Assembly: GCA_025823825.1 (NCBI GenBank)
Contig: GCA_025823825.1_4720.1
DNA length: 64,000 nt
From: a phage
Strand: one strand, 5' to 3'
The notes below the pieces were generated by a model. That model was given only the letters and a program-made list of their open reading frames with translations. It was not told the DNA's origin and did no database searches. The first letter of the stretch is position 1. Every line of letters starts with the position of its first letter. Below, one piece after another: positions 37,943-55,201 of the stretch. The position numbers were made by a program, and so were the translations under genes.

Positions 37943-38317
37943 TTAATGTTCGTTCCAGATGGCATCTTCCGGTGGAACAATAGGATCTTTCTTCGGCATT
38001 GATGGCACTTCATGACGATGCTTACGGAACTGCCTATCAATAACCTCACGAAGCCGGTACGCGTCAACCCAGGTTGATTTATTGAACAGCTCCAACGTCA
38101 CAGTTAATCGTGTTCTTGACATTGAATAGCTTTTCTTCGCAATCAAATTGGGATAATTCAGTTGAGCGAACCACGCACGTATTTGTGCTTCGGTAAAAGC
38201 GATGCTGTAATAACTAAGTTTACCGTCATTAAAATCGTGCGCGTGGGTGTAACGTCCAGCGTAACGCCAGACAAGATGCACATTCAGATCGATCCATGGT
38301 GGGGTGGTATCAGCCAT
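37943..38317 (-). CDS. hypothetical protein (124 aa)
   Basis: ATG with GAGGG RBS. Confidence 0.65.
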   Translation of the reverse strand: MADTTPPWIDLNVHLVWRYAGRYTHAHDFNDGKLSYYSIAFTEAQIRAWFAQLNYPNLIAKKSYSMSRTRLTVTLELFNKSTWVDAYRLREVIDRQFRKHRHEVPSMPKKDPIVPPEDAIWNEH

Positions 38318-38326
38318 GTGTTACCC

Positions 38327-38896
38327 TCAACGATTCTTCATCACTTTACCCAGGCTTTCGATATTATCCCAAAAGCGATTTTTACTTGGCGCATCGCCGA
38401 CGATAACCGACATCAAATCGCGACGTTCACGACTGATGATGCCCTGTGATTTCCAGATCACCATCGTCCAGCAAGCAGCCAGAACGAACAGATGATTAAT
38501 ACTCGGTTTGGTTTGCGCGATGAACGCGAGCCATGCCCAGATACCGGTATATACTATCGTCACTAAAAAGAGCGAGATTGTTGCAACGACAACAACGAAG
38601 TTTTGGACAGCGGGTTGATTCGCGTTATCATGAATAGCGGTAAGATCAGGAAGGTTACCTTCAACTGAACTCGTTTCATCGATTTCCAATTCTTCGATTT
38701 CTTTTCGTGTGTCGGGAGCTAATCCGGCATCATCAAGATGCTTTTTTAACCGCTGTATACTTAATCGTTGACCGATAGGAATGTTGATGTTGTCGTAACT
38801 ATTAAGCGCATCAACCAGGGAGCGCCCGTCAACGAGAACCAAGCTCGCAGTACCCATTGTCTGCGGTTTTATTTTGTAAAGGTCTTTTACTTTCAT
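38327..38896 (-). CDS. hypothetical membrane protein (189 aa), two predicted transmembrane helices
   Basis: ATG with GGAGGTGG RBS; hydrophobic stretches FVVVVATISLFLVTIVYTGIWAWLAFIA and LFVLAACWTMVIW. Confidence 0.65.
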   Translation of the reverse strand: MKVKDLYKIKPQTMGTASLVLVDGRSLVDALNSYDNINIPIGQRLSIQRLKKHLDDAGLAPDTRKEIEELEIDETSSVEGNLPDLTAIHDNANQPAVQNFVVVVATISLFLVTIVYTGIWAWLAFIAQTKPSINHLFVLAACWTMVIWKSQGIISRERRDLMSVIVGDAPSKNRFWDNIESLGKVMKNR

Positions 38897-38917: not shown

Positions 38918-41530
38918 TTAAGCGTCTGGTGTAAAATCAAAAGGAATGTCCGTACGAATGATATCATAACGTTTTCCTAGGAAATAAAACTCTTCGGGAA
39001 CCTGGCCGGGAATAATGCTATCGCCGATGAACTGCGGATACGCCCAGATGTACTGAGTGAGTCCTTCGAACTTATCCAGGTTATTTGCGTGGTTACCCAT
39101 GATACGTTTCCAGAGTTCGCGTTTATACGGTGTTTTAACATCGAATCCATAAAGCGGTGCAAGATCTTCACCAGGAACAAATCCCAGGTAATAATGGATC
39201 TGACTAACCGGGAAACCAAGCGTATCTCGCGGAATGGTGATCGCTTGCTCAGCCTTGGTGACATGCGTTTCAATAATCCAGTCGTAGCACTCCGAATAGA
39301 ACCGATCGAATTTCTCTGGGTTATACCACGCTTTGGGAAGATTCAGTTTCTCCGTGAACGCGTTCGACATGATCGTCGGCAAGAACGGAAGAACGCCGGT
39401 TTTGATCTGCGTGTATTTCGATTTTACCCGGTTAACCAAATTCCAGCAACTGTATCCTAATTGGTCGTTACAAAACTCAACGTAGAGATCGTAGTCACCA
39501 CCGGATAACGGGTTGTTAATATCACCGATGTCTGCGGCGTATTTGTTGGGATATCGGTTATTGAAAGCCAGTTTGGTTTGGTAATCGTAGATACACGGTT
39601 TGTTGTTCGCTGTATTGATCCACCACCAGGGTTCACCTATTTGCACACAAATGTCCTGGACATGGGGGTAGATGATATCAGCAAACGCGGTTAACACGTC
39701 CCCTAACCACGCCATCGCCTGTTGGTTACATGGAGACAGCAACCAGGACGGTGGTGTATATCCGGTTGCGGCGATGTTTCCTTCCCAATCCTGCTGCGCC
39801 CACTCGAACGGGCATGCTGTACTCATCAATTCGTAACTTAAACTGATGGTGACAGAGAAATGGTGTTTTGCAGCATATGCGGCGAAAGCTTCATGCCACG
39901 CGATACAGGGTGGATTTAATACATCCGTGGTGTTCACCAGTAACTTACCCGCACTTGGCGTCCAGACAGTATCGTAGAAATGCGACATTCCAACATAATG
40001 CACTAATTCATCTTGATACCCCGCATAAACCAGGTTTTCAAATACGCGCTCCGGCGTGATGTTGTAATGGTCATCGTAAGCGGTTATCGCACGAAGTTCG
40101 TGTGGTGTACAATGATGGCGATTAACCGTCATTTCTTGATACACCCCATCGATAGGAAGAATCTCGAGGGTTAAACCGAGGTCGATTGGCGTTTCCAGAT
40201 AGGTCGTTTCAGTCGCATCTTCCTTATAATGTCGAGAACTCATGCTGAACATCAACGACGTTACCGATTCGAGTTCGATAGGCTCGTCAGCATAGAACCC
40301 CGCCATTGCGTCATTGAAATCGATCGTTACGATTGCGCTTCTACCGTCTTCAGAGACATCGGTGGCGTATCGGGTTAATGAGATATACTGACGGCTATCG
40401 TCTTTGTGTACGATGGTTAGAACCGGCGGGTTTTCGGTATCTGCAAAGTTACGCTGATCGCCAGTAAACGTGATCTTCGCTTTAAAGATCAAACCGAATA
40501 ACGACGTCATGGGATCATACGCAATACAACCGTGATCCAGCGTATCCGTTGTCCGCCATTCTATCCCGACCAACCCGTTAGCGGTATGGCATCGCATATA
40601 CGCATTAAGGACCATGTCTTCACTGACAACCGCGAAGTTCTCTGTTGACTGACCGTTGATAATCCAATACATCGGTTGCCAGAGGTTACGCGTACCTTTT
40701 GCGTAGCGGTAGGTTGGTGCGCCTTTAGGGTTGCCATTATTGAGATGGAATACGGCAGTACCTTGATAATGGTCGTTCGTATTAATCGGAACACTGTAAG
40801 CATCACCGAGATCCGTACGTTCGACCTTCGTGACTGTTGCGTTTTCAAATAACCCACGTAGCGCCGGTAAACCGATATCTTCAGGCGCGTTTTCTCGACG
40901 AATCGCATCCGCGATGCGGTGGGCTAAGGCAGGGTAAATGACCTCACCCTGCTGTAGGTTTGCAAGACCTACAAAGCGATCGGGGTCGATGCTAGCAATC
41001 AATAACTCGACATCACCCTTCGTTCTATCGTCGTTAAGATATTTCAGTCCGGTAAGGTCAAGATGCTGAATAAGCGACAACAGGTTGTATTTACGGTTTT
41101 CAACAGTTAGTACAAGATCGCCTGCCCAAACCAAACTTCCCTCATCCGCTGTTACTTTAACGGATTGTCGGCCTGTGGTAGACGTTGTTGTCGTTTTATT
41201 TAATTGTCCTTGTAGGAAGTCGGTTGCGAGGTCAAAGGCAATGCCGTAACGGTCAGCGACCGCTTGCATGATTTCACGTAACTGGGTATCTTCTTCAATG
41301 ATAATCTTGACAGGTATTCCCAAGAACGCTTTAGCGAGGTCTCGTTTAACCAACGAGACGAATACGGATTTGTAGTATCGACTTCCATCTTTCCCTTTAA
41401 AAAGAATGGAGGTTGTTTCGGGTGCCGATAGAACACGTGCAAATTCAACATCGTCGAAAGTAAGAGAAAGTCCGTTTTTCTCGTTGGTTAATCTTAGTAT
41501 TTCATTTTGCGCGGTTTCATGTAACTTCAT
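38918..41530 (-). CDS. putative receptor-binding protein/tailspike (870 aa) with shared N-terminal anchor domain
   Basis: N-terminal 110 aa (RDLAKAFLGIPVKII...ADRYGIAFDL) conserved with N-termini of 47425-47952 and 48108-49862 genes; divergent C-terminal region. Confidence 0.7.
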   Translation of the reverse strand: MKLHETAQNEILRLTNEKNGLSLTFDDVEFARVLSAPETTSILFKGKDGSRYYKSVFVSLVKRDLAKAFLGIPVKIIIEEDTQLREIMQAVADRYGIAFDLATDFLQGQLNKTTTTSTTGRQSVKVTADEGSLVWAGDLVLTVENRKYNLLSLIQHLDLTGLKYLNDDRTKGDVELLIASIDPDRFVGLANLQQGEVIYPALAHRIADAIRRENAPEDIGLPALRGLFENATVTKVERTDLGDAYSVPINTNDHYQGTAVFHLNNGNPKGAPTYRYAKGTRNLWQPMYWIINGQSTENFAVVSEDMVLNAYMRCHTANGLVGIEWRTTDTLDHGCIAYDPMTSLFGLIFKAKITFTGDQRNFADTENPPVLTIVHKDDSRQYISLTRYATDVSEDGRSAIVTIDFNDAMAGFYADEPIELESVTSLMFSMSSRHYKEDATETTYLETPIDLGLTLEILPIDGVYQEMTVNRHHCTPHELRAITAYDDHYNITPERVFENLVYAGYQDELVHYVGMSHFYDTVWTPSAGKLLVNTTDVLNPPCIAWHEAFAAYAAKHHFSVTISLSYELMSTACPFEWAQQDWEGNIAATGYTPPSWLLSPCNQQAMAWLGDVLTAFADIIYPHVQDICVQIGEPWWWINTANNKPCIYDYQTKLAFNNRYPNKYAADIGDINNPLSGGDYDLYVEFCNDQLGYSCWNLVNRVKSKYTQIKTGVLPFLPTIMSNAFTEKLNLPKAWYNPEKFDRFYSECYDWIIETHVTKAEQAITIPRDTLGFPVSQIHYYLGFVPGEDLAPLYGFDVKTPYKRELWKRIMGNHANNLDKFEGLTQYIWAYPQFIGDSIIPGQVPEEFYFLGKRYDIIRTDIPFDFTPDA

Positions 41531-41552: not shown

Positions 41553-42194
41553 TTAGATGTACTGCTTACCGCCCACGAAGGAAGTTAACCAGTTCCCGCT
41601 GACGAGTTGTGATACCCAACCTGGAACGGCTCTACCATTCTGGCTCATGATGTTACCACACCAACCAGGGAATCCGGGACGGATGTAATAGAAAGTTAAA
41701 TTGTAGAGATGGCAATTCCATACCGCAACGTTATGTTTACCAGAAACCGCTTTAAAGATAAACGCGACAGGTAACGGAGACGATAACAATTCGGTCACAG
41801 GGACGGCTGACCAGTTCGCATTCGCGTTCCATGGTTGCCAGGTATGGCTACGCGAGTCACCGTTAACGTTACCGTTGCTACCGCGTCCGCCCGCGTTCCA
41901 CCAAAGCGATGGACTCATGTTCTTAAGTGAGGTAAATTGCTGTGGTGGAATATTCGGAATGATAACAGGGTTGGTACCTTGTCCGTGTTTCTTTTCTTTT
42001 GCGTTCACATAGCCGTTTATCGATTCCAGGTATTTGGTACCAGGATAATTGTTCTGGACTTGTGTCGCAATATCACGAACATCGAACGTCCAGCAGATCA
42101 TGGTGTTGTAGTAAGCATCGGTGTTGTCGTACCATGCGTTACCATCTTGTAAACGTGCGCCACTATTCGGTGTTTTATCTGTGTTTATAGCCAT
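41553..42194 (-). CDS. hypothetical protein (213 aa), paralog of 42306-43022
   Basis: C-terminal IRPGFPGWCGNIMSQNGRAVPGWVSQLVSGNWLTSFVGGKQY nearly identical to neighbour. Confidence 0.7.
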   Translation of the reverse strand: MAINTDKTPNSGARLQDGNAWYDNTDAYYNTMICWTFDVRDIATQVQNNYPGTKYLESINGYVNAKEKKHGQGTNPVIIPNIPPQQFTSLKNMSPSLWWNAGGRGSNGNVNGDSRSHTWQPWNANANWSAVPVTELLSSPLPVAFIFKAVSGKHNVAVWNCHLYNLTFYYIRPGFPGWCGNIMSQNGRAVPGWVSQLVSGNWLTSFVGGKQYI

Positions 42195-42305
42195 AGTGTT
42201 GTCCTATACTGCGATGATTGAGATATCGGATGCCGGATGTGTGTTGCCATCAGGTGGTACGTACAGAAACACCCACAGATAAAACAGTAGCTTCTCTAAC
42301 TTCAA

Positions 42306-43022
42306 TTAAATTGAAGTTAGATATTGTTTACCTCCAACAAACGACGTTAACCAATTACCTGAAACAAGTTGCGATGCCCAGCCAGGCACTGCCCTACCGT
42401 TCTGGCTCATCACGTTACCTGCCCATCCCGGAAAACCCGGTCGGAAAATATATACTTGAATATGTGTTAAAGCGTTATCATTACCACTGCCAACAGCAAC
42501 GTTACGACTCCCAGATGACGGGAAATATTCTTTTAAGAACAGAGGATCGGTTGCTAATAAAGATGCGGGCCAAGGGTTCGCGGATGCATCAACATCGAAT
42601 TCGGTCCATCGCCATTTACGTCCCGTGTCGAACCATGTCGATGTACCACCACCCCTCACGGCAAGATTGCGCGCATCACGGACATTATAAATTGATTCGA
42701 TGTTACGCCATCCACCTTTTGCAGCGTTTGCTGCATAGCAAACCGCATTACCACCATTCTTCTTCTCGTAAACGGTTCGTTTGATATGAACACGGTCGAT
42801 GAACGCTTCACCGTATTTGTTGACGAGCGTTTGTGCGATATCACGAAGATCGTGCATGTGAAAAGCGATGTCTTCGTTATGGAACCATGTTGTCTGGTTC
42901 CAGACGGTACCGTTTGGTTCGGCACACATCGATCGGATATTGTTGCGTTGATTAATCGCGATAAAACCCATTGTATACCTCGTTCCTATTCTCAAAAAGG
43001 AAATTTCATACGATGACGCCAT
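42306..43022 (-). CDS. hypothetical protein (238 aa from internal ATG), paralog of 41553-42194
   Basis: Internal ATG (MASSYEISF); the upstream residues of the track ORF are a translated hairpin element whose arm GGAGGAGC serves as SD. Confidence 0.7.
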   Translation of the reverse strand: MASSYEISFLRIGTRYTMGFIAINQRNNIRSMCAEPNGTVWNQTTWFHNEDIAFHMHDLRDIAQTLVNKYGEAFIDRVHIKRTVYEKKNGGNAVCYAANAAKGGWRNIESIYNVRDARNLAVRGGGTSTWFDTGRKWRWTEFDVDASANPWPASLLATDPLFLKEYFPSSGSRNVAVGSGNDNALTHIQVYIFRPGFPGWAGNVMSQNGRAVPGWASQLVSGNWLTSFVGGKQYLTSI

Positions 43023-43026
43023 AGCA

Positions 43027-43056
43027 GCTCCTCCTTCCCTTACGGGTTGGAGGAGC
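43027..43056. repeat. GC-rich hairpin element whose arm provides the SD of 42306-43022
   Basis: Minus-strand reading GCTCCTCC-AACCCGTAAGGGAA-GGAGGAGC-TGCT-ATG. Confidence 0.6.
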
Positions 43057-43064
43057 ATACTTAA

Positions 43065-43571
43065 TTACTCGCTGATAACCTCAACGGAATTGGGATCAGC
43101 GATCATCGCACGGTCAGTAGAACAATTGAAGAAGACCATGCCGACACCATCGCCGTTCGAGTTCAGGGTTGAACTTACGTAAGACAGGGTTGGTTTATTC
43201 ATGCGGTAGAAGCGTTCGCTGGTAGCGGTATTGAACCCCAGATCAACGTAGTCTTTCACCGTGGTATACAACTGTGTGGATTCGAAAACGGTTACCGGAG
43301 AGTCGACGGTAAACTGACTACCTTCATCCACAACCAGAACTTTATCGTTCCAGATTTCAGTGGTTGAAAACTTCGGTTTCCAATGTTCGAATTCCTGGGT
43401 TGCTCCCCAGCAGGAATACACAGCGAGATTGCTGTTCTTCTCAACCGGTTTCAATCCCACCAGTTGTGTCAGGTCTTTATCCAGGTTCGGTAAGCCTTCC
43501 AGCGTAGCGCACCCACCCAGAGAAAGTACCATCAACATACCAAGAATAATCGCGCAGAGTTTCTTCATCAT
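43065..43571 (-). CDS. putative lipoprotein (168 aa)
   Basis: Signal peptide MMKKLCAIILGMLMVLSLGGC with lipobox-like LGGC. Confidence 0.7.
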   Translation of the reverse strand: MMKKLCAIILGMLMVLSLGGCATLEGLPNLDKDLTQLVGLKPVEKNSNLAVYSCWGATQEFEHWKPKFSTTEIWNDKVLVVDEGSQFTVDSPVTVFESTQLYTTVKDYVDLGFNTATSERFYRMNKPTLSYVSSTLNSNGDGVGMVFFNCSTDRAMIADPNSVEVISE

Positions 43572-43619
43572 TAGATTTCCTTATGTGTTAACGGAAGTGA
43601 CTTCCATAAGGATTGATGA

Positions 43620-44072
43620 TTACTTTTTGAGCGCTTTAAGTTCTTCTTCCAACGCTTCCACTTTTGCCGTAAGCTTCTGTACTTGTTTGATTAATGGAAC
43701 CACCAAACGTTCGTACATAACACCTTCAGCGACGAGTCCGTTAGAAGAAACGATAGCGGGGTCATCTTCTTCGGTTGCATCACGCCAGTGCACGTACTGC
43801 GGTGCGATCTCACCAACCTCTTCAGCAATCAACCCATACCAACCCCAATCCTTGTTGTCTGCTTCACATGTGGAACGATACCAAACAGGACGCATCTCCA
43901 ATACTTTATCCGCTTGTTCATCCGTGATATTCTCGATATCTTTCTTATAGCGACGCGACGACGTTGAACGAAACACATTGTTGATCCCAGAAACAGGACT
44001 GATATACATGTTAGCCCCGCTGGTTGTAGTGCTAATGTCCCATACCGCAAATCCGCCGTTACTCCCATTTTT
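43620..44072 (-). CDS. S74-type intramolecular chaperone-like domain, open frame out of phase (+1) with upstream tail fiber gene; probable frameshift-fused fiber C-terminus or homopolymer artefact
   Basis: SSRRYKKDIENI...WYGLIAEEV...PQYV...YERLVVPLIKQVQKL...LEEELKALKK matches the auto-processing chaperone pattern; frame open from 44072, first ATG only at 44009; A7 run at junction. Confidence 0.55.
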   Translation of the reverse strand, partial: KNGSNGGFAVWDISTTTSGANMYISPVSGINNVFRSTSSRRYKKDIENITDEQADKVLEMRPVWYRSTCEADNKDWGWYGLIAEEVGEIAPQYVHWRDATEEDDPAIVSSNGLVAEGVMYERLVVPLIKQVQKLTAKVEALEEELKALKK

Positions 44073-47000
44073 TTACGATCAATGTGTTGGCAATAATGTC
44101 CAGGTTATTGTCGTAACCGGTTAATTGTCTTTCCGTTACATAACTGGATAGATTGACCGAGTAGTTCTTACTGTTATAACAACGACGCCATCCTGGGCTG
44201 TTGGTACTGCCATTATAGTTGTCGTAGCTATAAATGAACTCGGAGTTGGTTTTCGCACCACTGACGGAAGACGTGGTTGCGGTCGTAACACGGATGGTAT
44301 AGTTTGTCATCCCGAAGCTAACGACCTCGATAACAGCACCAGCCAGAGGGATAATACCGCACTTGGTTTCACTGTCTGGGATGTATGCGCTGTCGGCAGC
44401 TGCGAAGGAGCAACGTGCGACCCAGGCGCGGGTATTGAATGCACCTTGGTTTTGCAACAACGTGATAAACGATGAGGTCGTAATCGAGCTGTTATTATCA
44501 CCGGTGATCAACCAGCCGGTCGGGCATGCGGTTGCGCCAACGTTTTTCGCTGTTAACGTGATGTTCTGCGATCCGTCGAAGGCTACGCCACTGATAGTGC
44601 GCGCAGTCTGCAGTTTCGTCGCCGTTGCTGCGTTCCCTGATGTGTTCTGGTTCCCTGCGGCGTTAACACCCGGCAGATTGATATTCGCACTACCGTCGAA
44701 AGACACCCCACCAATGGTGCGGGCGGTTTTCAGTTTTGTCGCCGTGGCGGCATTACCGGTCGTGTCTTGGTTACCGGTGGTGTTTACCCCAGGTAGGTTG
44801 ATATTGGCCGTTCCGTTAAATGAAACACCACCAATCGTCCGTGCCGTTTGCAACTTCGTTGCGGATGCCGCATTCCCCGTGGTGTTTTGGTTACCTGTTG
44901 TATTCACACCTGGGATACTATCCTTAGATGTGTAGATCTGTGCCCATTCCGACCAGTTCGCATCTGATGCATCACGACGCGAACGTAGGTAAGCTGGAGC
45001 GTGTGCGCCTGAAGTACCTGACCATCCAATAAGGATCTCACCTTCACCTACTGCGGTTGCTCCTTTAAGATGAACAACGTTACCGTAGGCTGTAGGGTAT
45101 CCGTTATTGTACGCTTCATACATCTGGATGCCCGTATTGCTGCCCTGGGTCGCATTAGCTAAAGCGGTGACTCGTCCCATGGAAGCGAGCACGTTAATGC
45201 TAAAGCTAATATCAGTTGTACCATCAAAGGCGACCCCATTAATCTTCCGTGCTGTTTGGAGTTTCGTGGCAGTAGCCGCATTACCAGAGGTACTCTGATT
45301 ACCTGCTTTGTTCACGCCTGGTAAATCAATGTTGGCGGTTCCATCAAAGGACACACCCCCTATGGTTCTCGCCGTCTGAAGTTTTGTTGCTGAACCGGCG
45401 TTTCCGGAAGTGCTTTGATTACCCGCCGCGTTAACACCCGGTAGGTTAATGCTAGCAGAACCATCAAAAGAAACACCACCGATTGTGACAGCCGTTTTCA
45501 ATTTCGTGGCTGTCGCAGCGTTACCCGTTGTATTCTGATTGCCAGCTGCATTGACGCCAGGTAATGCGATATCAGCTGTGCCATCGAACGCGACACCGCC
45601 TATTTTACGGGCGGTTTGTAGCTTGGTTGCTGTAGCGGCATTACCGCTGGTATTTTGCGTACCGGCTTTATTTACACCGGGAAGATCGATGTTAGCAGAA
45701 CCGTCGAAGCTGACGCCACCTATTGTTCTTGCGGTAGCGAGTTTAGTTGCTGTGGTTGCAGCATTACCAGCCTTTAACCATTCGCCCCATGGGCCATCCA
45801 CGCCGTTCCATGAAGCTGTTAAACTACGTACGTAAATATTTCCTGTACGTACGGTGTAACGCTGTGTTCCACCGAATTGCCCAGCTGGGAGCACTTCGAT
45901 GTAACCTACTGCGTTTGCTTCAGGGAAATTGTGGGCAGCATCAGCATTCGTTGACGTTTGTTTGGACCAAATACCCACAGACGCTTCAACCGGACCGTAG
46001 GTATTTAGATTCGCATCGGTGGGAAGCTGTCCTCGGAAACGTCGGAATAATGAAGCTGTTAACCCCAACGTTGTTTGCATCCCTTCAATGCTTGACTGCG
46101 ATAAAAGCGCCCGAGCTGTCGACGTGATAGCCGCTAAAGCAACCTTATCCGTACCGGTAAAATACGGGAATTTGTTTGCTGAAGTTGCTAAACCTGAAAG
46201 GGCGGTCAGTAATGCGTTAAGGGGTTGTTTCCCAGCCAGCGCGTTAGTTACTGTTGTTGCGAAATTAGGGTCGTTGCCTAAAGCTTGAGCCAGCTCATTA
46301 AGCGTATTTAGCGCTTCTGGCGACGAGTCGATCAGTGATGCGATAGCACGCATCACAAATTCCGTGTTGGCGATCTGTTGACTGCTATCGTTATCTGCAG
46401 CCGTAGGTGCTGCTGGGATACCGGTGAACACAGGGTTATTAAGATCTGCCTTGAGAGCGATGAGACGTCTAAGCGCTTCGACATCGACTTTCAGGTTTTC
46501 CCATCCGACGAGATAACCATCACCGGTTGTATGATAACGGTTGTACCAAAAATCACCATTGACACCGAAATAGAATATTCCTTTCTCTTCGTATTGTGGG
46601 CCGGAACTGTTCCGTGATGAGCTAATGTATTTTATTTCGATAAGGCCGTCGAATACCACTCCTGGGATGATTTTATTATTTCCAGCTGGCTGTGATACTT
46701 GGTACATCCCCGGGGTTGCGGCTTTAACCCACGTTAAGAATTCTGTTACTCCGGCGCTACCACTGAAATTCTTAACGTCGGTAAGTATCGCCCCATAACC
46801 GAACATACCGGGTAGAGCAACTCGTCCGCTGGTACGGTCACGAATATTTGATGCGACGACAGGCAGCTGTTTACGAACATTGTTAACCGCCTTAGGTGTG
46901 GCCGATTTTGTCTCGTCATCGCTATCGATGGCGTTGCTCAGGATGGTCAGTCCTCGAGTATTTGTGGTCGCATCAGGAAGAAACGCGTTATCCAACACCT

Positions 47001-47418
47001 TAAGTTGTACAGCGCTCGTGTTACTAACAACGAGATACATCTGACAGTTAAGAACGCTGGATGCACCTTCAGTAGGCACCGGCTTATATCTTTCCGGTGC
47101 GCTGCAAACAGCGATCAGAACACCCTGATCGTCATACAGACCGATTTCACGTACCCAGAATCCACCTTGGTTTACAGGAATAATACCCTCAACAATAATC
47201 CTGGTTGTGTCATCCGTATCGACACGGATATTAGCAACTTCCCCACGATAAACTTCGTGTACGAGCGCTGTTTGACCAACAGCCGGTGTCGGTATCGACC
47301 CGTTACCATCGCCAACAGCAAAATGTGTGATTTTTAGTTTCTCGCCACCAGGAAGTAGTGCGGCGGCGATACGTTCAGCGCCTTTATCGGTAATGACCGT
47401 TTTATATGTTGTACTCAT
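44059..47418 (-). CDS. tail fiber protein (1119 aa) with P2 gpH-like N-terminal domain and tandem 33-aa fiber repeats
   Basis: N-terminus TVITDKGAERIAAAL...ITHFAVGDGNG...GQTALVHEVYRG...GGFWVREIGLYDDQGVLIAV resembles the P2 gpH / lambda Stf fiber N-terminus (from memory); 8-9 repeats of TARTIGGVSFDGSANIxLPGVNxAGNQxTSGNAATATKLQ. Confidence 0.85.
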   Translation of the reverse strand: MSTTYKTVITDKGAERIAAALLPGGEKLKITHFAVGDGNGSIPTPAVGQTALVHEVYRGEVANIRVDTDDTTRIIVEGIIPVNQGGFWVREIGLYDDQGVLIAVCSAPERYKPVPTEGASSVLNCQMYLVVSNTSAVQLKVLDNAFLPDATTNTRGLTILSNAIDSDDETKSATPKAVNNVRKQLPVVASNIRDRTSGRVALPGMFGYGAILTDVKNFSGSAGVTEFLTWVKAATPGMYQVSQPAGNNKIIPGVVFDGLIEIKYISSSRNSSGPQYEEKGIFYFGVNGDFWYNRYHTTGDGYLVGWENLKVDVEALRRLIALKADLNNPVFTGIPAAPTAADNDSSQQIANTEFVMRAIASLIDSSPEALNTLNELAQALGNDPNFATTVTNALAGKQPLNALLTALSGLATSANKFPYFTGTDKVALAAITSTARALLSQSSIEGMQTTLGLTASLFRRFRGQLPTDANLNTYGPVEASVGIWSKQTSTNADAAHNFPEANAVGYIEVLPAGQFGGTQRYTVRTGNIYVRSLTASWNGVDGPWGEWLKAGNAATTATKLATARTIGGVSFDGSANIDLPGVNKAGTQNTSGNAATATKLQTARKIGGVAFDGTADIALPGVNAAGNQNTTGNAATATKLKTAVTIGGVSFDGSASINLPGVNAAGNQSTSGNAGSATKLQTARTIGGVSFDGTANIDLPGVNKAGNQSTSGNAATATKLQTARKINGVAFDGTTDISFSINVLASMGRVTALANATQGSNTGIQMYEAYNNGYPTAYGNVVHLKGATAVGEGEILIGWSGTSGAHAPAYLRSRRDASDANWSEWAQIYTSKDSIPGVNTTGNQNTTGNAASATKLQTARTIGGVSFNGTANINLPGVNTTGNQDTTGNAATATKLKTARTIGGVSFDGSANINLPGVNAAGNQNTSGNAATATKLQTARTISGVAFDGSQNITLTAKNVGATACPTGWLITGDNNSSITTSSFITLLQNQGAFNTRAWVARCSFAAADSAYIPDSETKCGIIPLAGAVIEVVSFGMTNYTIRVTTATTSSVSGAKTNSEFIYSYDNYNGSTNSPGWRRCYNSKNYSVNLSSYVTERQLTGYDNNLDIIANTLIVKKWE
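44540..45760 (-). repeat. in-frame tandem repeats of about 99 bp (33 aa) inside the tail fiber gene, two blocks
   Basis: Repeated peptide unit read in translation; coordinates back-calculated from protein positions, approximate. Confidence 0.7.
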
Positions 47419-47424
47419 GGCGTT

Positions 47425-47952
47425 TTATCCCGGGTAAATAGTGATGGTGTCACCAACGATAGTTGTAGCACCGGCGTAAAGATACGCTGGTGATGCCTCA
47501 CGTTGGTTTGTCACGATAAGATCCAGTCTCCCACGCCAAACCACGGAGGTATTCGCGATGGGAATCGAGATCTTCTTGGAAGTATCGTCACGAAAATTAA
47601 TGGCGGTAGCAAGGGTAACTGAATCAAAATCAACGTCGGGTTCAAAGTTGAATCCGTATTGATCTGAAATAGCTTGAATAACCGCTCTTATGGTTGTTGT
47701 TTCAACCGACTCCAAAACGATTTTTATCGGTATTCCTAGAAATGCTTTCGCGATATCACGTCGTGTGTAAGTGATAAAACTTTCACCACACCACCTTGTT
47801 CCTTCATTTGCTGTGACGATCACTTTTGCCCTGTTAGCACCAGAACTCCCATCCAGGGTTAAAGTGAGATCGGAGTTGCTGAATACACTACCGTTACGTT
47901 GGTTTATCAACGTAATAAGTTCGTCTTTCCATGGTGGGTAAAGTGAACGCAT
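47425..47952 (-). CDS. short protein (175 aa) made mostly of the shared RBP N-terminal anchor domain
   Basis: Internal ATG (MRSLYPPWKDELITLINQRNG) preceded by GGAGGAGGG; aligns with N-termini of 38918 and 48108 genes (RRDIAKAFLGIPIKIV...DQYGFNFE). Confidence 0.65.
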   Translation of the reverse strand: MRSLYPPWKDELITLINQRNGSVFSNSDLTLTLDGSSGANRAKVIVTANEGTRWCGESFITYTRRDIAKAFLGIPIKIVLESVETTTIRAVIQAISDQYGFNFEPDVDFDSVTLATAINFRDDTSKKISIPIANTSVVWRGRLDLIVTNQREASPAYLYAGATTIVGDTITIYPG

Positions 47953-47975
47953 ATGCGCACCCTCCTCCAATAATC

Positions 47976-48107: not shown

Positions 48108-49862
48108 TTATGCTGCTACATACCCAGGCCAACGTTCTCTTGGCCAGTTTGTTGCGCCCTGTCCAACGTTGTCCTTACCAGAAGTTACATTACTTACATC
48201 CCAACCACTAAGATCCTGGTTAAATGCGGTGTTGTTACGCATCATGAGGTCGATATTACGTAATGATTGGGTATTCCAGCCGGAAATGTCTTGGTTGAAT
48301 GCCGTGTTGTAAGCAAACATGTTAACAACGTTTTGTAATTTTGAAGTGTTCCAGCCGCTAATATCGCCATTGAACTGCATGTTCGAGAACATACTGCTAG
48401 CATCGATAAGACTATCTGTTTTCCAGTTAACCAGCTTGTTCTCATCAAGTGCGTTGCAACTACTGAACATGTAACTCATGTTGTTAACTTTGGATACATC
48501 CCATTTATCTAACCCGTTACCAACGAACTCGTAACAAGCTTGGAACATCCAGCTCATGTCGGTAACCTGGCACACATTCCATTTGCTAAAGTCGAGGTTG
48601 AGTTTTGCGCATCCGGAGAAAGTTTTATACATACTGGTGATACGACTAACATCCCATTCTTGAATGTTAGGATCATTAAGTATAGATAAGAATTGGAACA
48701 ATCCGTCTAACGACGTCCATTTCTCTGGAATACGGTTTGGTACTGTACGGAGCGATGAAAGGTTATTGGTTGACGGAGAGCGGAACATACCGTTATCCCA
48801 ATTTACGATTTCCGTAATGTTGTACCCACGGATCGTTTGGCGTCCATTACCATTATACACAGACCCTGTTGCAGTTATTGTATATTCGTTTGTATCAGCA
48901 TACGTATATTCAGCCTGTGTAGGCCACTCACCTATTACATCCCTATTCCCATCACCCCAGTCAATGGAAATATCTATCCAACCATCAAGATCTAGGGTAA
49001 CGGTCCCGCCATTGGTCTTCAGGATGTATTTACCTGCATTGTCGGTATAATAACAAACAATCATCGCACCGTACAGGTTACCAATTTGCCAATCATCCTT
49101 TTGAGTTACCGCGATTTGTGCTGTACCACGCTGTAAGAAAAGTACCGTACGGTTCTCGTCAGTCTGTAGTGCGGTTAGTGCTTGAGTCTTATCATCGTCG
49201 GTAATTTCACCGGCTTCCATTAAAGCACTTAACATTCTTTCGAAGTACTCGATAGGCAACTGAGGTCCTACCGACATATCAACTGATGGAACAGTGAGAT
49301 CATCCAATGCTGCTGCCGTTGCGAGGACTAATGATCCCTTGGCGGTGTCTGTTTCTTGGAGGTAACGCAGTCCCGTAATCTGGTACGCTTGAATGATTGT
49401 AATCAGATCCAGTGTATCGTTAATGACCTGTACTTGTAAATGTCCAGACCAAACATAGCTGCTTTCAGCAATCGGTAATTCGACCGACTGAATACCCGAC
49501 GTTTCAAAACTGATCTTCTTATTAAGATCGGCTTCCAGGAAATCAACAGCTAGGTCGAAATTTATACCGTACTTCTCAGCGATGGAATCTACAATGTTCC
49601 TGAAAGCAACATCGGTACTTACGATGAAACGTAACGGGATCCCGGTGAACGCGTTGGCAATATCTCGACGAACATACGTGAGCGACTGCTCGAAGAAATA
49701 AGGACTGTTATCTCCAGGTTTGATGGTTACCTGGCATACTTCAGGATGTTCAGCTGGAATGAAAGATTCGAATTTAACGTCGGTTTCCTTCAACGATAGC
49801 ATGTTCTTCCGGTTTACCAACGCCAGAAGATCAGCTTTCCACCCAGGATAAACTGTAGACAT
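48108..49862 (-). CDS. putative receptor-binding protein (585 aa): shared N-terminal anchor domain plus C-terminal DUF285/BspA-type repeats
   Basis: Internal ATG (MSTVYPGWKADLLALVNRKN) with GGAG RBS; C-terminal repeats ...MFxxxxxFNQDISGWNTxxxxNxxxMF... typical of the Mycoplasma DUF285 / BspA-like family. Confidence 0.7.
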   Translation of the reverse strand: MSTVYPGWKADLLALVNRKNMLSLKETDVKFESFIPAEHPEVCQVTIKPGDNSPYFFEQSLTYVRRDIANAFTGIPLRFIVSTDVAFRNIVDSIAEKYGINFDLAVDFLEADLNKKISFETSGIQSVELPIAESSYVWSGHLQVQVINDTLDLITIIQAYQITGLRYLQETDTAKGSLVLATAAALDDLTVPSVDMSVGPQLPIEYFERMLSALMEAGEITDDDKTQALTALQTDENRTVLFLQRGTAQIAVTQKDDWQIGNLYGAMIVCYYTDNAGKYILKTNGGTVTLDLDGWIDISIDWGDGNRDVIGEWPTQAEYTYADTNEYTITATGSVYNGNGRQTIRGYNITEIVNWDNGMFRSPSTNNLSSLRTVPNRIPEKWTSLDGLFQFLSILNDPNIQEWDVSRITSMYKTFSGCAKLNLDFSKWNVCQVTDMSWMFQACYEFVGNGLDKWDVSKVNNMSYMFSSCNALDENKLVNWKTDSLIDASSMFSNMQFNGDISGWNTSKLQNVVNMFAYNTAFNQDISGWNTQSLRNIDLMMRNNTAFNQDLSGWDVSNVTSGKDNVGQGATNWPRERWPGYVAA

Positions 49863-50063
49863 AAGCACTCCAATCATGGGGGCGAACGCCCCCCATCAGT
49901 TAAATGATCGTTTACGTCGCGTAAGGGTAATATAATTGCTGTGAGCCATATCAGAAGTTCACAACATTCTGAATCATAAGGTTACGTCGTTGGAAACAAA
50001 CCGATACAGATTCTTCATAGAACATTGAGATGATGGAAACCTAATTCGTACCATGAAAGCCGC

Positions 50064-51989: not shown

Positions 51990-52487
51990 TTACGTGTGTC
52001 GTCGTTTACCAAAGAAAATGTGGCTGTCTACCACGGTGATATTGGTAGCATGTTTTCTGAAATGCTTAGGGCGAAGATGTTTCGCGTTAAAGAATACGGC
52101 TCCTCGTGTTGGGTCGGCTTTATGGTAAGCCGCAATGTCAGTATAACGTAATGTTGCGACCTCTCGTGCTATTGCTCTTGCTCGCTCAAAAGCAGCATGA
52201 TCGCGTATGACAATACGCCTTTGTTTTGTCCAGGGGAATTGACCTCTCTGCAGTACGACGTCTTTGACGTTCGTAGGGAATCGGTAGTCCATAGATCGAT
52301 TATGTATTAAAAACGCAACGGAGTATTGCCCTTTTACAGATTCGCCTCTGGCTTCCATATACACAGCGCATGCGACGATCTCTTTCCGGCAATCGATTCT
52401 AGGTCCTGCGTTCACCGATGCTTGACTGAACGGTGTGATAAGCAACATAACAAGCCCTAAAATCAACGTGTGTAAAATACCTTGCAT
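51990..52487 (-). CDS. SleB-type cell wall hydrolase (Hydrolase_2 family) with N-terminal signal peptide; endolysin candidate (165 aa)
   Basis: CAVYMEARGESVKGQYSVAFLIHNRS...VLQRGQFPW matches the SleB signature; N-terminal hydrophobic signal LILGLVMLLITPFSQASVNA; ATG with GAGGT RBS. Confidence 0.75.
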   Translation of the reverse strand: MQGILHTLILGLVMLLITPFSQASVNAGPRIDCRKEIVACAVYMEARGESVKGQYSVAFLIHNRSMDYRFPTNVKDVVLQRGQFPWTKQRRIVIRDHAAFERARAIAREVATLRYTDIAAYHKADPTRGAVFFNAKHLRPKHFRKHATNITVVDSHIFFGKRRHT

Positions 52488-52740
52488 CTTAATAACCTCA
52501 CGATAAGGTGCTGTCCACTGGCGTCTTGATAACGCATCCCGTCTATCGGGTTGTTCTATTCAGCGGGCAGCAGGTTAGCGTCAGATGTTTGCCCGACATC
52601 CACGACAGAAATAAACGGTACTGAAAATACGGTCTCCTCTGGTTTGGCAATAAACATAACGTTGGATAACAGAACCCATTTCCCGCATCCAACGCGGTAA
52701 AGGTGTACATCGTTTGAATTCATATAGTTTCTCAAAGATG

Positions 52741-53052
52741 TTAACCTCTACCGTCAAGCCATAGGTTGTATTTATCCCGAAGGTATGGATCACGATAAAT
52801 ACGTCGATAGACTTGATACGGTATAAACTTGCAATGTACGAGTTCGTCGCTTAATTTATGACGTCGCTCCATACCGTTGTGAATACGACGTATCTCCCGG
52901 ATATTAAAGGTTGTTTTATTCAAGAGAATAGACATAATGACGGATCGATGATCCAGATTAAAGATCGCCATTACGCCTCGTATCTCGCGTAAAACAACTT
53001 CTCTATCGACAAGGATGCGATTATTTAACTTAAGATTCTCCGTGATACCCAT
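52741..53052 (-). CDS. hypothetical protein (start uncertain)
   Basis: Track start is GTG and overlaps upstream gene; internal ATGs at 53061/53052; competes with overlapping ORF 52581-52793. Confidence 0.35.
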   Translation of the reverse strand: MGITENLKLNNRILVDREVVLREIRGVMAIFNLDHRSVIMSILLNKTTFNIREIRRIHNGMERRHKLSDELVHCKFIPYQVYRRIYRDPYLRDKYNLWLDGRG

Positions 53053-53401
53053 AACCTTCATCCTCGACACGTCGACACATCGGTAAAAATAAACACCAGC
53101 TTGTTGCACTGAGGATCGCCGTTACGATGATATTTGCGATATCACTCAATCGAGCATCGGCTTGCCACATAACAAGCATAAAAAGAACGTACGCGAACCC
53201 ATACACGACAAACCGTCTGATGTTACGCGTCGACCACGTACAAATATACAAAAGGGGAAGTTGTCCTATAACACAAACGATGGTTCGGATAACGTAATAA
53301 ACGCGTTCCGTCGTTGTTTCAAAATCGATATTCGCTGCAGAAATCCCGATCATTATAAAAGTGAAAATGAAATAGATTTTTGCGTATGTCTTTAAACTCA
53401 T
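53030..53401 (-). CDS. hypothetical integral membrane protein (123 aa), about 4 predicted TM helices
   Basis: Hydrophobic segments IYFIFTFIMIGISAA, VIRTIVCVIGQLPLLYI, FVVYGFAYVLFMLVMW, IIVTAILSATSWCLFL. Confidence 0.6.
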   Translation of the reverse strand: MSLKTYAKIYFIFTFIMIGISAANIDFETTTERVYYVIRTIVCVIGQLPLLYICTWSTRNIRRFVVYGFAYVLFMLVMWQADARLSDIANIIVTAILSATSWCLFLPMCRRVEDEGYGYHGES

Positions 53402-53417
53402 GGCTTTTCTCGTTCGT

Positions 53418-53612
53418 TTATTTGCGTTTTCCTACATTCCTCAACAAGGTAACGATAACGAATACCGCTATCATCAAGAAGACGAACCATAACCCTACGT
53501 TAATTCGGGCGGCTGGTACATCCACCATAAGGAACATCGTCCCACAAAAACCAATTACCATCCATGCTAAGACCATCCCTGTTAATCCCCGTAGTAGCAT
53601 ATGTCCCATCAT
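53418..53612 (-). CDS. holin-like small membrane protein (about 64 aa) with tandem start codons
   Basis: AAGGAG then ATG ATG (MMGHM); two TM segments and basic C-terminal tail RNVGKRK; track start 53651 is TTG. Confidence 0.5.
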   Translation of the reverse strand: MMGHMLLRGLTGMVLAWMVIGFCGTMFLMVDVPAARINVGLWFVFLMIAVFVIVTLLRNVGKRK

Positions 53613-53785
53613 GAACTCCTTCTTACTTTTTCTGATAGAGCGATGATTCAAATTTTAGAAACACCGCTAACGCGAGTGCGATTAATAACGCACGTACCCA
53701 CATACCTCCTTGACAACTGTTGTACAACATAAAGACCAGAGCGATGCCGCCCATATGCAGGCGGCACTTATCGAACAGTGTTGGT

Positions 53786-53995
53786 TTATACATAAGAGAT
53801 CAATCGTTGAGTGATTTTTACTTTGCCTTTACCTGGGCCTTTCTTACAGCGATTCAACAGACGGATACGAGTTCGGGTTACGACGTCGCCATCATAATCA
53901 GCCTGGAACTGTGATAAGAAAGCAGGTTGTATCGGATCGACACCAGGATTGCTATAGAAAGGATTGAGACTTAAAAGAGGGTTAGCTGGAATCAT
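53786..53995 (-). CDS. small hypothetical protein (69 aa)
   Basis: ATG with AAGGA 7 nt upstream. Confidence 0.45.
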   Translation of the reverse strand: MIPANPLLSLNPFYSNPGVDPIQPAFLSQFQADYDGDVVTRTRIRLLNRCKKGPGKGKVKITQRLISYV

Positions 53996-54013
53996 CGTAT
54001 TGTCCTTACTCAG

Positions 54014-54364
54014 TTATTTACCCAGATAGAGGTATTCACCACCCTGAACAACACCGGTTGCTGGATCAACAAGTATACGAACCCGCGCGTAGGTCTTGAA
54101 AGAGGGGTTGAAAACTTCGAAGTCCGCCACTTTCAATTTCACGCTGGGGTTGATTGGGTTCTTAACACCAGGAAGTTCTTTCGGGGTACCGAAGTCAACA
54201 CCGCATTCTTCAAGGTCTGCTGGCGTCATGCTCTCCATGGCCATGTAGATTGTTTTTGCTTTATCGTAAACTTCCGGGCTATCCAGCAATCCCGCCTGCG
54301 CCGAACCGATAACACTACCGAACAGAATAGCAACAGCAACAAACAATTTAGTTAACGTTTTCAT
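54014..54364 (-). CDS. secreted hypothetical protein (116 aa)
   Basis: Signal peptide MKTLTKLFVAVAILFGSVIGSAQA; ATG with AAGGAAA RBS. Confidence 0.65.
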   Translation of the reverse strand: MKTLTKLFVAVAILFGSVIGSAQAGLLDSPEVYDKAKTIYMAMESMTPADLEECGVDFGTPKELPGVKNPINPSVKLKVADFEVFNPSFKTYARVRILVDPATGVVQGGEYLYLGK

Positions 54365-54402
54365 GATCGTTTCCTTAATAACTTAAATAAACCAATTTAG
54401 TA

Positions 54403-54825
54403 TTAACGTACAGCCGCTACGCTGCGAGCGCATGCCTGAATATCATCGGTGTTTACGATGATGGTTTCGTTAAACGCACGAATACGTGCGCGACGTGCTT
54501 CTTTAAGGCTGGCGATTGCGCTAGCAGCTTGATCTGTATTCGCAAGGCTAATAACCGGGATCAAACGCATGTCAGGACTGCAGATATTCAATGCTTGGTA
54601 CACACGTCCATTGATTCCCACGGTATCAGACATCGGATAGTGCGCACGGCATTGAAATTGACCCATGACAACAAGCGAACGATCGGAGATACCAATCTGA
54701 TAACGGCCGTCTTCGCTGTAGGCGTAGCAGTTATTCCCACGAGCCATCCAGTTAGCCTGTGCTTGTGTGCTAACAAAAGCCAGGGTGGTGACGATAGCGA
54801 ATACGATATTTTTGAACAGTTTCAT
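54403..54825 (-). CDS. secreted hypothetical protein (140 aa from internal ATG)
   Basis: Internal ATG gives signal peptide MKLFKNIVFAIVTTLAFVSTQAQA; AAGGA 8 nt upstream. Confidence 0.6.
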   Translation of the reverse strand: MKLFKNIVFAIVTTLAFVSTQAQANWMARGNNCYAYSEDGRYQIGISDRSLVVMGQFQCRAHYPMSDTVGINGRVYQALNICSPDMRLIPVISLANTDQAASAIASLKEARRARIRAFNETIIVNTDDIQACARSVAAVR

Positions 54826-54883
54826 GATAAAGATCCTTATTGAAATAAAATCGGTATAAAGGCCCCCATTTAGGGGGACCTGA

Positions 54884-55201
54884 TTAGTTTGCACGTAAGA
54901 AATGACCCAGAACCGTTACGATTGGAAACAGCCCTGTAACAGTATTATCACCCGAAAACATCATCATTGTTCCGTTAACGGTGATGAAACGGATGTCGGT
55001 TGCGGACCCATCGATAGCGACAAAACGCATCGAGTTCGGTGGAAGGTCCTCAACCACTTCCACGAGGTACTCGCGATTATCAAAGGCTTCTTTAACACGA
55101 CGCATGAAACGAATCAAGGTTCCTTCCGCGTCAGCTTCCAAATGACCTAAGATATCGCGATTATTACGAATAGCAAATACAGCCATTTTAAACATACTCA
55201 T
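54884..55201 (-). CDS. hypothetical protein (105 aa)
   Basis: ATG with AAAGGA RBS. Confidence 0.6.
   Translation of the reverse strand: MSMFKMAVFAIRNNRDILGHLEADAEGTLIRFMRRVKEAFDNREYLVEVVEDLPPNSMRFVAIDGSATDIRFITVNGTMMMFSGDNTVTGLFPIVTVLGHFLRAN

What the first reader, a model, noticed from the sequence alone, without database searches (positions are those of the whole stretch)
43065..43571. Lipoprotein gene embedded between tail fiber genes: possible receptor-masking superinfection exclusion factor
168-aa protein with a clear lipoprotein signal (LSLGGC lipobox). In several phages (for example T5 Llp, Cor-type proteins) a small outer-membrane lipoprotein encoded next to the receptor-binding gene blocks the phage's own receptor after infection. 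The position here, immediately downstream of the fiber-chaperone region, fits that arrangement.
Basis: inference. Interest (0 to 1): 0.55.

Follow-up and report, generated by a model that had tools for sequence, protein, structure and literature searches.

The report
Conserved jumbo-phage outer-membrane lipoprotein gene
A giant E. coli phage of the Goslar type encodes, right after its long tail-fibre gene, a small protein that is almost certainly exported and lipid-anchored in the host outer membrane; it is real and conserved, but it does not change when the fibre tip changes, so it is probably not a mask for that fibre's receptor, and its role is still untested.

Summary
Window 43065..43571 (minus strand) is a real 168-aa gene with a textbook lipoprotein signal (K3K4, hydrophobic core, L-G-G-C21, Ala at +2). 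It is 98% identical to the hypothetical protein Goslar_00088 and under strong purifying selection (dN/dS about 0.06).

It belongs to a very small family found only in enterobacterial nucleus-forming jumbo phages (Goslar-like and SPN3US/Kwan-like). The lipid Cys and two further Cys are invariant. The AlphaFold model is a tethered all-beta barrel with only generic fold matches. No sequence or fold link to T5 Llp, Cor, spanins or lysozyme inhibitors was found.

The SPN3US homologue gp159 is absent from the one SPN3US virion mass-spectrometry table I read, which lists neighbouring gene products. This favours a non-virion, envelope-acting protein.

The specific receptor-mask idea is weakened. The fibre tip and chaperone cassette is swapped right up to the lipoprotein's ribosome-binding site. 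Three chaperone types accompany lipoproteins that stay 86-100% identical.

It is the only credible lipoprotein in the Goslar genome, and no canonical spanin pair was found, so a lysis role remains a rival. My best reading is a late-made envelope-conversion or exclusion factor aimed at a conserved target. That function is inferred, not shown. Interest is moderate to low.

The parts
43065..43571 (-). Lipoprotein precursor CDS, 168 aa (167 aa if the second ATG at 43568 is used, as annotated in Goslar_00088).
   Evidence: ORF list; 98% aa identity to Goslar_00088; dN/dS 0.06-0.07; phrog_9559, function unknown.
43576..43582 (-). Shine-Dalgarno AAGGAAA, 4 nt before the first ATG and 7 nt before the second.
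   Evidence: Read directly from the sequence.
43512..43571 (-). Signal peptide, residues 1-20: n-region K3K4 and hydrophobic core LCAIILGMLMVLSL.
   Evidence: Sequence. It is the only hydrophobic segment of the protein. The equivalent region is present in all 24 aligned family members.
43509..43520 (-). Lipobox L18-G19-G20-C21. Cys21 is the predicted acylated first residue of the mature protein, followed by Ala22, so no inner-membrane retention signal.
   Evidence: Codons read. C21 is invariant and G20 at least 90% conserved in A2. The +2 residue is A/S/K/V/T/Q and never D.
43461..43508 (-). Flexible tether, residues 22-37; the lowest-confidence stretch of the model is residues 19-30. It carries a 9-residue insertion relative to the SPN3US/Kwan clade.
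   Evidence: pLDDT profile; alignment gap pattern.
43119..43460 (-). Periplasmic all-beta meander barrel domain, residues 38-151. It holds the invariant Cys54 (43410..43412) and Cys150 (43122..43124), which lie on the first long strand and the last strand and probably form a barrel-closing disulfide.
43620..47418 (-). Upstream long tail fibre (1119 aa, 44059..47418) plus its C-terminal Peptidase_S74 intramolecular-chaperone part (129-aa ORF, 43620..44009). The two are split in this window by an A7 run at 44068..44074. This is context, not part of the lipoprotein.
   Evidence: Pfam hits. Near-identical contigs carry A6 and one 1265-aa protein. The tip region 43609..44537 is not homologous to Goslar.

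Best explanation
The gene encodes a non-virion, phage-specific outer-membrane lipoprotein. [quoted passage not shown] The anatomy comes from the model and alignment: a roughly 115-residue beta-barrel, probably closed by a Cys54-Cys150 disulfide, hanging in the periplasm on a tether of about 16 residues. It is made from the late fibre operon. My committed inference on function is this: it converts the envelope of the infected cell by binding a conserved envelope component or a conserved step of phage entry. Infected cells and their lysis debris would then become refractory to Goslar-type particles, giving exclusion or protection against re-adsorption. It is not tuned to the receptor read by the neighbouring, exchangeable fibre tip. 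The export and anchoring part is well supported. The exclusion function is untested inference by analogy.
For: Lipobox and signal peptide are conserved across the family, with invariant C21, C54 and C150 and never Asp at +2. The family is confined to jumbo-phage contigs: only 18 hits among 1.84 billion representatives, about ten of them clear full-length family members and the rest fragments or weak multi-stretch matches, with no clear bacterial homologue. It is therefore a phage invention, not a captured host gene. The SPN3US homologue gp159 is not among the virion proteins in Table S4 of PMC5105663, whereas gp155 and gp160 are. In all Goslar-type genomes examined the gene directly follows a fibre or RBP-like gene, with gaps of 48, 44, 16 and 29 nt, implying co-transcription with late structural genes. 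Strong purifying selection (dN/dS 0.06-0.07), 86-100% identity across three different fibre-tip and chaperone cassettes, and presence in phages filed under E. coli, Salmonella and Shigella assemblies all point to a conserved target. Known precedent: virulent phages encode outer-membrane lipoproteins (Llp, Cor) next to RBP genes that prevent superinfection and loss of progeny on debris (PMC9586334; PMC11990801). Llp also has a disulfide tying its termini together.
Against: There is no homology or specific fold match to any exclusion protein. Late co-transcription would be too late for classical exclusion during most of the infection; from my own recollection, not checked in the papers read here, T5 llp is an early gene. 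In the SPN3US/Kwan clade the gene is a separate, oppositely oriented unit 1-2 kb from the endolysin and not beside a recognised tail fibre, so context does not consistently point to adsorption. It is the only lipoprotein in a genome without a recognisable spanin pair, which would equally fit a lysis role. No experiment on any family member was found, and a 2026 review of jumbo phages mentions neither superinfection nor spanins.
Confidence: 0.4

Rival explanations
1. One reading: an Llp/Cor-type mask of the specific receptor used by the adjacent tail fibre. The lipoprotein would bind the periplasmic face of that outer-membrane receptor and allosterically close its surface loops.
For: Outer-membrane lipoprotein placed immediately after the fibre and chaperone genes in all Goslar-type genomes examined. 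Non-virion in SPN3US. Precedent of Llp and Cor.
Against: The tip and chaperone cassette differs completely between the window and Goslar, while the lipoprotein is 98% identical and the recombination boundary excludes it. A third cassette (DUF4376) accompanies an 86% identical protein. dN/dS of 0.06 shows no diversifying pressure. SPN3US, which has a homologue, uses flagella. There is no similarity to Llp or Cor.
Confidence: 0.1
2. Lysis component: a non-canonical outer-membrane disruption factor standing in for the missing spanin. It might act together with secreted or periplasmic proteins of the phage.
For: It is the only credible lipoprotein encoded in the whole Goslar genome and the window. 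No type-II membrane protein with an embedded or overlapping lipoprotein was found. A probable lysis cluster lies at 51990..54894: a signal-peptide SleB-like hydrolase, small multi-TMD proteins and two secreted proteins, with no lipoprotein among them. In SPN3US, Kwan and pEa_SNUABM_43 the gene lies 1-2 kb from the GH108 endolysin. Late expression fits.
Against: There is no C-terminal TMD, so it is not a u-spanin. There is no adjacent or overlapping i-spanin gene. The protein is a compact, confidently folded barrel rather than the short proline-rich o-spanin type (the o-spanin description is from my own knowledge). In Goslar-type phages it lies 8.5 kb from the SleB-like hydrolase cluster and about 80 kb from the GH108 homologue gp24, so linkage to lysis genes is not conserved. 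In the SPN3US clade it is on the opposite strand to the endolysin.
Confidence: 0.2
3. Periplasmic inhibitor of a peptidoglycan hydrolase. This could be MliC/PliC/PhiA-like, or functionally like T4 Spackle. It would block the tail lysozyme of incoming related phages, or restrain the phage's own secreted hydrolase until lysis.
Confidence: 0.1
4. Other envelope or host-takeover role, for example modulating envelope stress, vesiculation or a carrier state, or a virion or assembly protein after all.
For: Goslar-type genomes turn up as 235-248 kb contigs in many E. coli, Salmonella and Shigella isolate assemblies, hinting at persistent association. Function is unknown for the whole family (phrog_9559).
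Against: Nothing specific supports it. Virion membership is contradicted for SPN3US, and a cleaved lipoprotein signal is incompatible with cytoplasmic virion assembly.
Confidence: 0.2

Closest known systems
T5 Llp (lytic conversion lipoprotein) and the Cor lipoproteins of T1/phi80-type phages
   Same: Phage-encoded outer-membrane lipoprotein of a virulent phage, non-virion, encoded beside a receptor-binding gene. It carries a conserved Cys pair; Llp has a Cys11-Cys58 disulfide.
   Different: No sequence, profile or fold similarity. The mature size is about 147 aa, against roughly 60-70 aa for Llp as I recall it. The fold is a beta-barrel. The gene does not co-vary with the neighbouring receptor-binding tip. 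In Goslar-type phages it is co-oriented and apparently co-transcribed with late fibre genes.
Spanins (o-spanin Rz1 type; u-spanin T1 gp11 type)
   Same: Phage outer-membrane lipoprotein made late. It is the only lipoprotein in a genome lacking a recognisable spanin.
   Different: No partner i-spanin gene overlapping or adjacent. No C-terminal TMD. It is a globular, confidently folded domain. Linkage to the lysis genes is not conserved.
Lipid-anchored or periplasmic 8-stranded beta-barrels: MliC/PliC/Brucella PhiA, and the barrels of Neisseria NHBA, TbpB, HpuA and fHbp
   Different: The similarity is generic to the fold class. There are no shared motifs and no sequence signal.
Homologues already in databases: Goslar_00088, SPN3US_0159 (gp159), Kwan gp173, Huxley_164, Asesino_174 (phrog_9559)
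   Same: True family members at 27-98% identity, with the same lipobox, Cys pair and predicted barrel.
   Different: None of them has an assigned or tested function. UniProt auto-labels some as 'Lipoprotein'. One GenBank record says 'DUF2846 domain containing protein', which Pfam scans of 24 members do not reproduce even at E up to 10.

Membership tests
Bacterial-type lipoprotein precursor (PROSITE PS51257-type rule) | K/R in the first 7 residues, an uncharged hydrophobic stretch, [LIVMFWSTAG]2-[LIVMFYSTAGCQ]-[AGS]-C, with Cys at position 15-35. | tested here: met
   K3 and K4; GMLMVL; S-L-G-G-C21. Conserved in 24 of 24 family members. It was the only genuine gene found by a lipobox scan of the Goslar genome plus the window.
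Bacterial-type lipoprotein precursor (PROSITE PS51257-type rule) | Actual acylation and LspA cleavage, and outer-membrane localisation. | not testable with these tools
   Needs globomycin or palmitate labelling and membrane fractionation. The +2 residue is Ala, and never Asp in the family, which predicts Lol export in E. coli.
T5 Llp / Cor superinfection-exclusion lipoproteins | Sequence or structural homology to Llp or Cor. | tested here: not met
T5 Llp / Cor superinfection-exclusion lipoproteins | Encoded next to the receptor-binding protein gene. | tested here: met
   True for every Goslar-type genome examined. Not clearly true in the SPN3US/Kwan clade.
T5 Llp / Cor superinfection-exclusion lipoproteins | The allele tracks the receptor specificity of the neighbouring RBP. 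| tested here: not met
   98% identity across a complete tip and chaperone replacement. 86% identity with a third cassette. dN/dS 0.06.
T5 Llp / Cor superinfection-exclusion lipoproteins | Expression blocks adsorption or infection by the same phage. | not testable with these tools
   Requires adsorption and plating-efficiency assays.
Two-component spanin (o-spanin) | The lipoprotein gene is embedded in, overlapping or adjacent to a type-II inner-membrane i-spanin gene. | tested here: not met
   The flanking genes are the S74 chaperone ORF and a 250-aa protein without a TMD. No such pair exists anywhere in Goslar.
Unimolecular spanin (T1 gp11 type) | N-terminal lipobox plus a C-terminal transmembrane domain. 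| tested here: not met
   The only hydrophobic segment is residues 5-23. The C-terminus STDRAMIADPNSVEVISE is hydrophilic.
MliC/PliC lysozyme-inhibitor barrels | Family sequence motifs or profile match, and a specific fold match. | tested here: inconclusive
DUF2846 (label in GenBank MW384823) | Match to the Pfam DUF2846 model. | tested here: not met
   None of 24 members matches it, even at E up to 10.

The most novel reading that the evidence does not exclude
The single lipoprotein of Goslar/SPN3US-type nucleus-forming phages is a new kind of envelope effector. One option is a receptor-independent exclusion factor that blocks a conserved post-adsorption step of chimallivirus entry. The other is the missing outer-membrane-disruption component of a lysis system that works without spanins. 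Either would define a new functional family built on a tethered periplasmic beta-barrel.
Probability: 0.25. Interest if true: 0.6.

Novelty: new variant of a known kind. Interest (0 to 1): 0.35.

Why it matters
Nothing is known about how nucleus-forming jumbo phages of enterobacteria deal with superinfection, with loss of progeny on debris, or with the outer-membrane step of lysis. A 2026 review mentions neither superinfection nor spanins. This gene is the only protein these phages appear to target to the outer membrane. It is small and conserved and should be easy to clone or delete, which makes it a cheap entry point to those questions. The comparison also gives a practical caution. Position next to a fibre gene is not enough to call a receptor mask, because here the fibre tip is exchanged without the lipoprotein. 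If the gene turns out to be an ordinary accessory gene with no phenotype, little is lost.

Tried and rejected
1. Word-indexed protein search with the single sequence found only 6 close relatives. An alignment query gave 29. An exhaustive profile search over 1.84 billion representatives gave 18. None of these added a clear bacterial homologue.

2. Pfam, PHROGs, NCBIfam, PADLOC and PDB-sequence searches gave no informative family.

4. I considered the GenBank label 'DUF2846' and rejected it.

5. I tested whether the 2-TMD protein tm189 (38327..38896), which is adjacent to the lipoprotein in relative L006, forms a conserved pair with it. It does not. tm189 homologues occur in other chimalliviruses next to thymidylate kinase, without the lipoprotein, and are absent from the SPN3US clade.

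6. I looked for an embedded o-spanin in Goslar gp152. The host gene has no TMD, so the small ORF is spurious.

7. The sigma-70 promoter scan was uninformative: fewer hits than in shuffles, and these phages use their own RNA polymerases.

8. I tried to read the SPN3US infection-proteome paper (J Virol 2019) for expression timing of gp159. It is not held.

9. Literature searches for gp159, Goslar plus lipoprotein, and spanin plus SPN3US or Goslar found nothing relevant.

Full report
WHAT THE WINDOW IS. The target ORF matches Escherichia phage vB_EcoM_Goslar (237 kb, a nucleus-forming jumbo phage) at 96.6% nucleotide identity. The window is collinear with Goslar from about 55 to 122 kb. It is 99.83% identical over 18.5 kb to a 241-kb metagenome scaffold, L014.

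THE OBSERVATION. The ORF at 43065..43571 on the minus strand encodes 168 aa starting MMKKLCAIILGMLMVLSLGGC|ATLEG. It has two lysines in the n-region, an uncharged hydrophobic core, the lipobox L-G-G-C21, Ala at +2 and a good Shine-Dalgarno. The signal peptide is its only hydrophobic segment. The protein is 98% identical to Goslar_00088, annotated 'hypothetical protein'. Its 90% cluster holds 258 sequences. dN/dS is 0.058 against Goslar and 0.07 against an 86% relative, similar to the neighbouring genes. In a regex scan for lipoprotein signals over every possible start of every ORF in the window and the complete Goslar genome, it is the only hit that is a real gene. The others are antisense or tiny spurious ORFs.

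THE FAMILY. tblastn finds homologues in 55 phage records, all enterobacterial jumbo phages. They are Goslar, about 27 Erwinia phages (Kwan, Wellington, Huxley, Machina, Asesino, phiEaH2 and others) and the Salmonella SPN3US group. SPN3US_0159, Kwan gp173 and the others all start with a signal peptide and lipobox (LLAGC, LLGGC). An alignment of 24 members shows invariant C21, Y52, C54, P66, G84, R120, Y122, S134, G140, G142 and C150. No member has Asp at +2. An exhaustive HMM search of 1.84 billion cluster representatives found only 18 proteins. About ten are clear full-length family members and the rest are fragments or weak multi-stretch matches. The word-indexed search found 29, on contigs of up to about 240 kb. 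No clear bacterial homologue was found, and no Pfam, NCBIfam, PADLOC or PDB-sequence match. The only PHROG is phrog_9559, of unknown function. The 'DUF2846' label on one GenBank record is not reproduced.

IS IT A VIRION PROTEIN? For the SPN3US homologue gp159, I read Table S4 of Thomas et al. 2016 (PMC5105663). It lists gp155 and gp160 with high spectral counts but no gp159. gp159 is also not mentioned in three SPN3US virion-proteome papers. A protein with a cleaved Sec/LspA signal is also topologically unable to join cytoplasmic virion assembly. No virion proteome of Goslar itself was available.

GENOMIC CONTEXT AND THE KEY TEST.
- Position in Goslar-type genomes. The gene directly follows a fibre or RBP-like gene in the window, Goslar, L007 (86% lipoprotein identity), L006 and L013 (48-49%), and L014-L017 (100%). 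Intergenic gaps are 16-48 nt, so it is most likely co-transcribed with these late genes.
- The homology break. blastn of the window against Goslar shows 97% identity downstream of the gene and 96% across the gene itself (window 42968-43608). Homology is lost completely across the fibre tip and chaperone (window 43609-44537).
- Three cassettes, one lipoprotein. Goslar has a P1-S-like tip with a Caudo_TAP assembly protein. The window has a Peptidase_S74 intramolecular chaperone. L007 has a DUF4376 protein. The exchangeable receptor-binding cassette stops 12 nt after the chaperone stop codon and excludes the lipoprotein, which stays 98% (Goslar) and 86% (L007) identical. A second RBP-like gene (48108..49877, against Goslar gp92) is also replaced.
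- Hosts. The identical or nearly identical lipoprotein is found on phage-sized contigs from E. coli, Salmonella and Shigella assemblies.
- The distant clade. Distant family members belong to phages of Erwinia and to SPN3US, whose receptor is the flagellum. In that clade the gene is a lone, oppositely oriented unit. It lies between a DUF7941 protein (gp160, a head protein by mass spectrometry of tailless particles) and the DUF1353 / M15-like / GH108-endolysin genes.

Together these results argue against a mask tuned to the neighbouring fibre's receptor. They argue for a target that is conserved among Enterobacterales, or among the phages themselves.

THE LYSIS RIVAL. Because the gene lies near the endolysin in the SPN3US clade, I looked for spanins. 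The protein has no C-terminal TMD, so it is not a u-spanin, and no adjacent or overlapping type-II membrane partner, so it is not an o-spanin in the canonical arrangement. Neither Goslar nor the window encodes another credible lipoprotein. A probable lysis cluster lies 8.5 kb upstream on the same strand. It comprises a SleB-like hydrolase with a cleavable signal peptide (51990..52487), a 4-TMD protein (53030..53401), a 2-TMD protein (53418..53651) and two secreted proteins (54014..54364 and 54403..54894). None of them is a lipoprotein. The GH108 homologue is Goslar gp24, far away. The phage therefore lacks a recognisable spanin, and this lipoprotein is its only outer-membrane-targeted product. 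That keeps a non-canonical lysis role alive at about 0.2, although nothing positive supports it and linkage to the lysis genes is not conserved.

COMPARISON WITH KNOWN SYSTEMS. Llp of T5 and Cor of T1-type phages are small outer-membrane lipoproteins. They are encoded beside the RBP gene, disable the receptor from the periplasmic side, and protect against superinfection and adsorption to debris (PMC9586334; PMC11990801). The present protein shares the localisation signal, the non-virion status, the position in Goslar-type phages and a conserved Cys pair. It fails the homology test and the co-variation test, and it is a different and larger fold. It may still work in a similar way, by binding something at the periplasmic face of the envelope to exclude phage. 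But it is not a member of those families, and its target is unlikely to be the adjacent fibre's receptor. A Spackle-like or MliC-like inhibition of a peptidoglycan hydrolase is another way to get receptor-independent exclusion. The PhiA fold hit is too generic to support it.

VERDICT. This is a real, conserved, phage-specific gene for a tethered periplasmic barrel lipoprotein of the outer membrane, already present in databases as a hypothetical protein or 'lipoprotein' without function. My confidence is 0.4 for a conserved-target exclusion or anti-readsorption role, 0.2 for a lysis role, 0.1 for a fibre-specific mask, 0.1 for a hydrolase inhibitor and 0.2 for something else. Interest is modest. 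The gene would become more interesting only if experiments showed a receptor-independent exclusion mechanism or a spanin-free route through the outer membrane.

Noticed in passing
window 44059..44074 (A-run 44068..44074, minus strand); ORFs 44059..47418 and 43620..44009: The long tail fibre is split into a 1119-aa ORF and a separate 129-aa Peptidase_S74 ORF by one extra A in a homopolymer (A7). Near-identical contigs L014 and L016 have A6 and encode a single 1265-aa fibre with the S74 chaperone domain fused, and L015 and L017 have 838-aa fused versions. This is either a sequencing or assembly indel or a genuine frameshift mutation of the fibre.
   Followed up: yes
window 42295..42321 and 42306..43058: The 250-aa gene just downstream of the lipoprotein ends at a TAA created by a single substitution at 42308. 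Relatives have AAA there and read 35 aa further, through a hydrophobic stretch. The changed base is the central nucleotide of a perfect 12+12 bp palindrome that is conserved in the relatives. This may be a hairpin element at the gene boundary. A better start for this gene is probably the ATG at 43022, preceded by GGAGG.
   Followed up: partly
window 43609..44537 versus Goslar (L001 10904..11961); also L007 8651..9220: The distal fibre tip and its chaperone form an exchangeable cassette. There are three different chaperone types in otherwise collinear phages: Peptidase_S74 in the window, Caudo_TAP in Goslar and DUF4376 in L007. A sharp homology boundary lies 12 nt after the chaperone stop codon.
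   Followed up: yes
window 42306..43058 and 41553..42194: The 250-aa and 213-aa proteins share a conserved C-terminal stretch of about 45 aa (GFPGW.GN.MSQNGRAVPGW.SQLVSGNWLTSFVGGKQY) but differ elsewhere. Goslar has only the 213-aa copy. Neither has any Pfam or PHROG assignment. They may be a variable pair of fibre-associated proteins.
   Followed up: partly
window 51990..54894 (minus strand): Probable lysis cluster: a SleB-like cell-wall hydrolase with a cleavable signal peptide (51990..52487), a 4-TMD protein (53030..53401), a 2-TMD holin-like protein (53418..53651) and two secreted proteins (54014..54364, 54403..54894). No spanin pair is detectable here or anywhere in the Goslar genome.
   Followed up: partly
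window 38327..38896 and 37943..38317: A 189-aa protein with a soluble N-terminal half and two C-terminal transmembrane segments, followed by a 124-aa protein, closes the late operon. In the distant relatives L006 and L013 these two genes follow the lipoprotein directly or after one gene. Homologues of the membrane protein occur in other chimalliviruses (PCH45, PhiEaH1, Moabite, Klebsiella jumbo phages) next to thymidylate kinase.
   Followed up: partly
cluster of the window protein; loci L014-L017: The exact lipoprotein sequence, and Goslar-type genomes as single contigs of 235-248 kb, occur in assemblies deposited as E. coli, Salmonella enterica (Kentucky, Panama, Typhimurium) and Shigella flexneri isolates. 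This suggests carrier-state persistence of these virulent jumbo phages in cultures, or contamination.
   Followed up: no
window 47425..47970, 48108..49877, 38918..41530; SPN3US gp160 (L002 8253..8780): The DUF7941 N-terminal domain marks many paralogues around the lipoprotein. In SPN3US the corresponding 'paralog family B' proteins, including gp160 next to the lipoprotein, were found in tailless particles and are regarded as head proteins. The tail-type Pfam labels (NCTSP) on the 870-aa neighbour should therefore be read with caution.
   Followed up: partly
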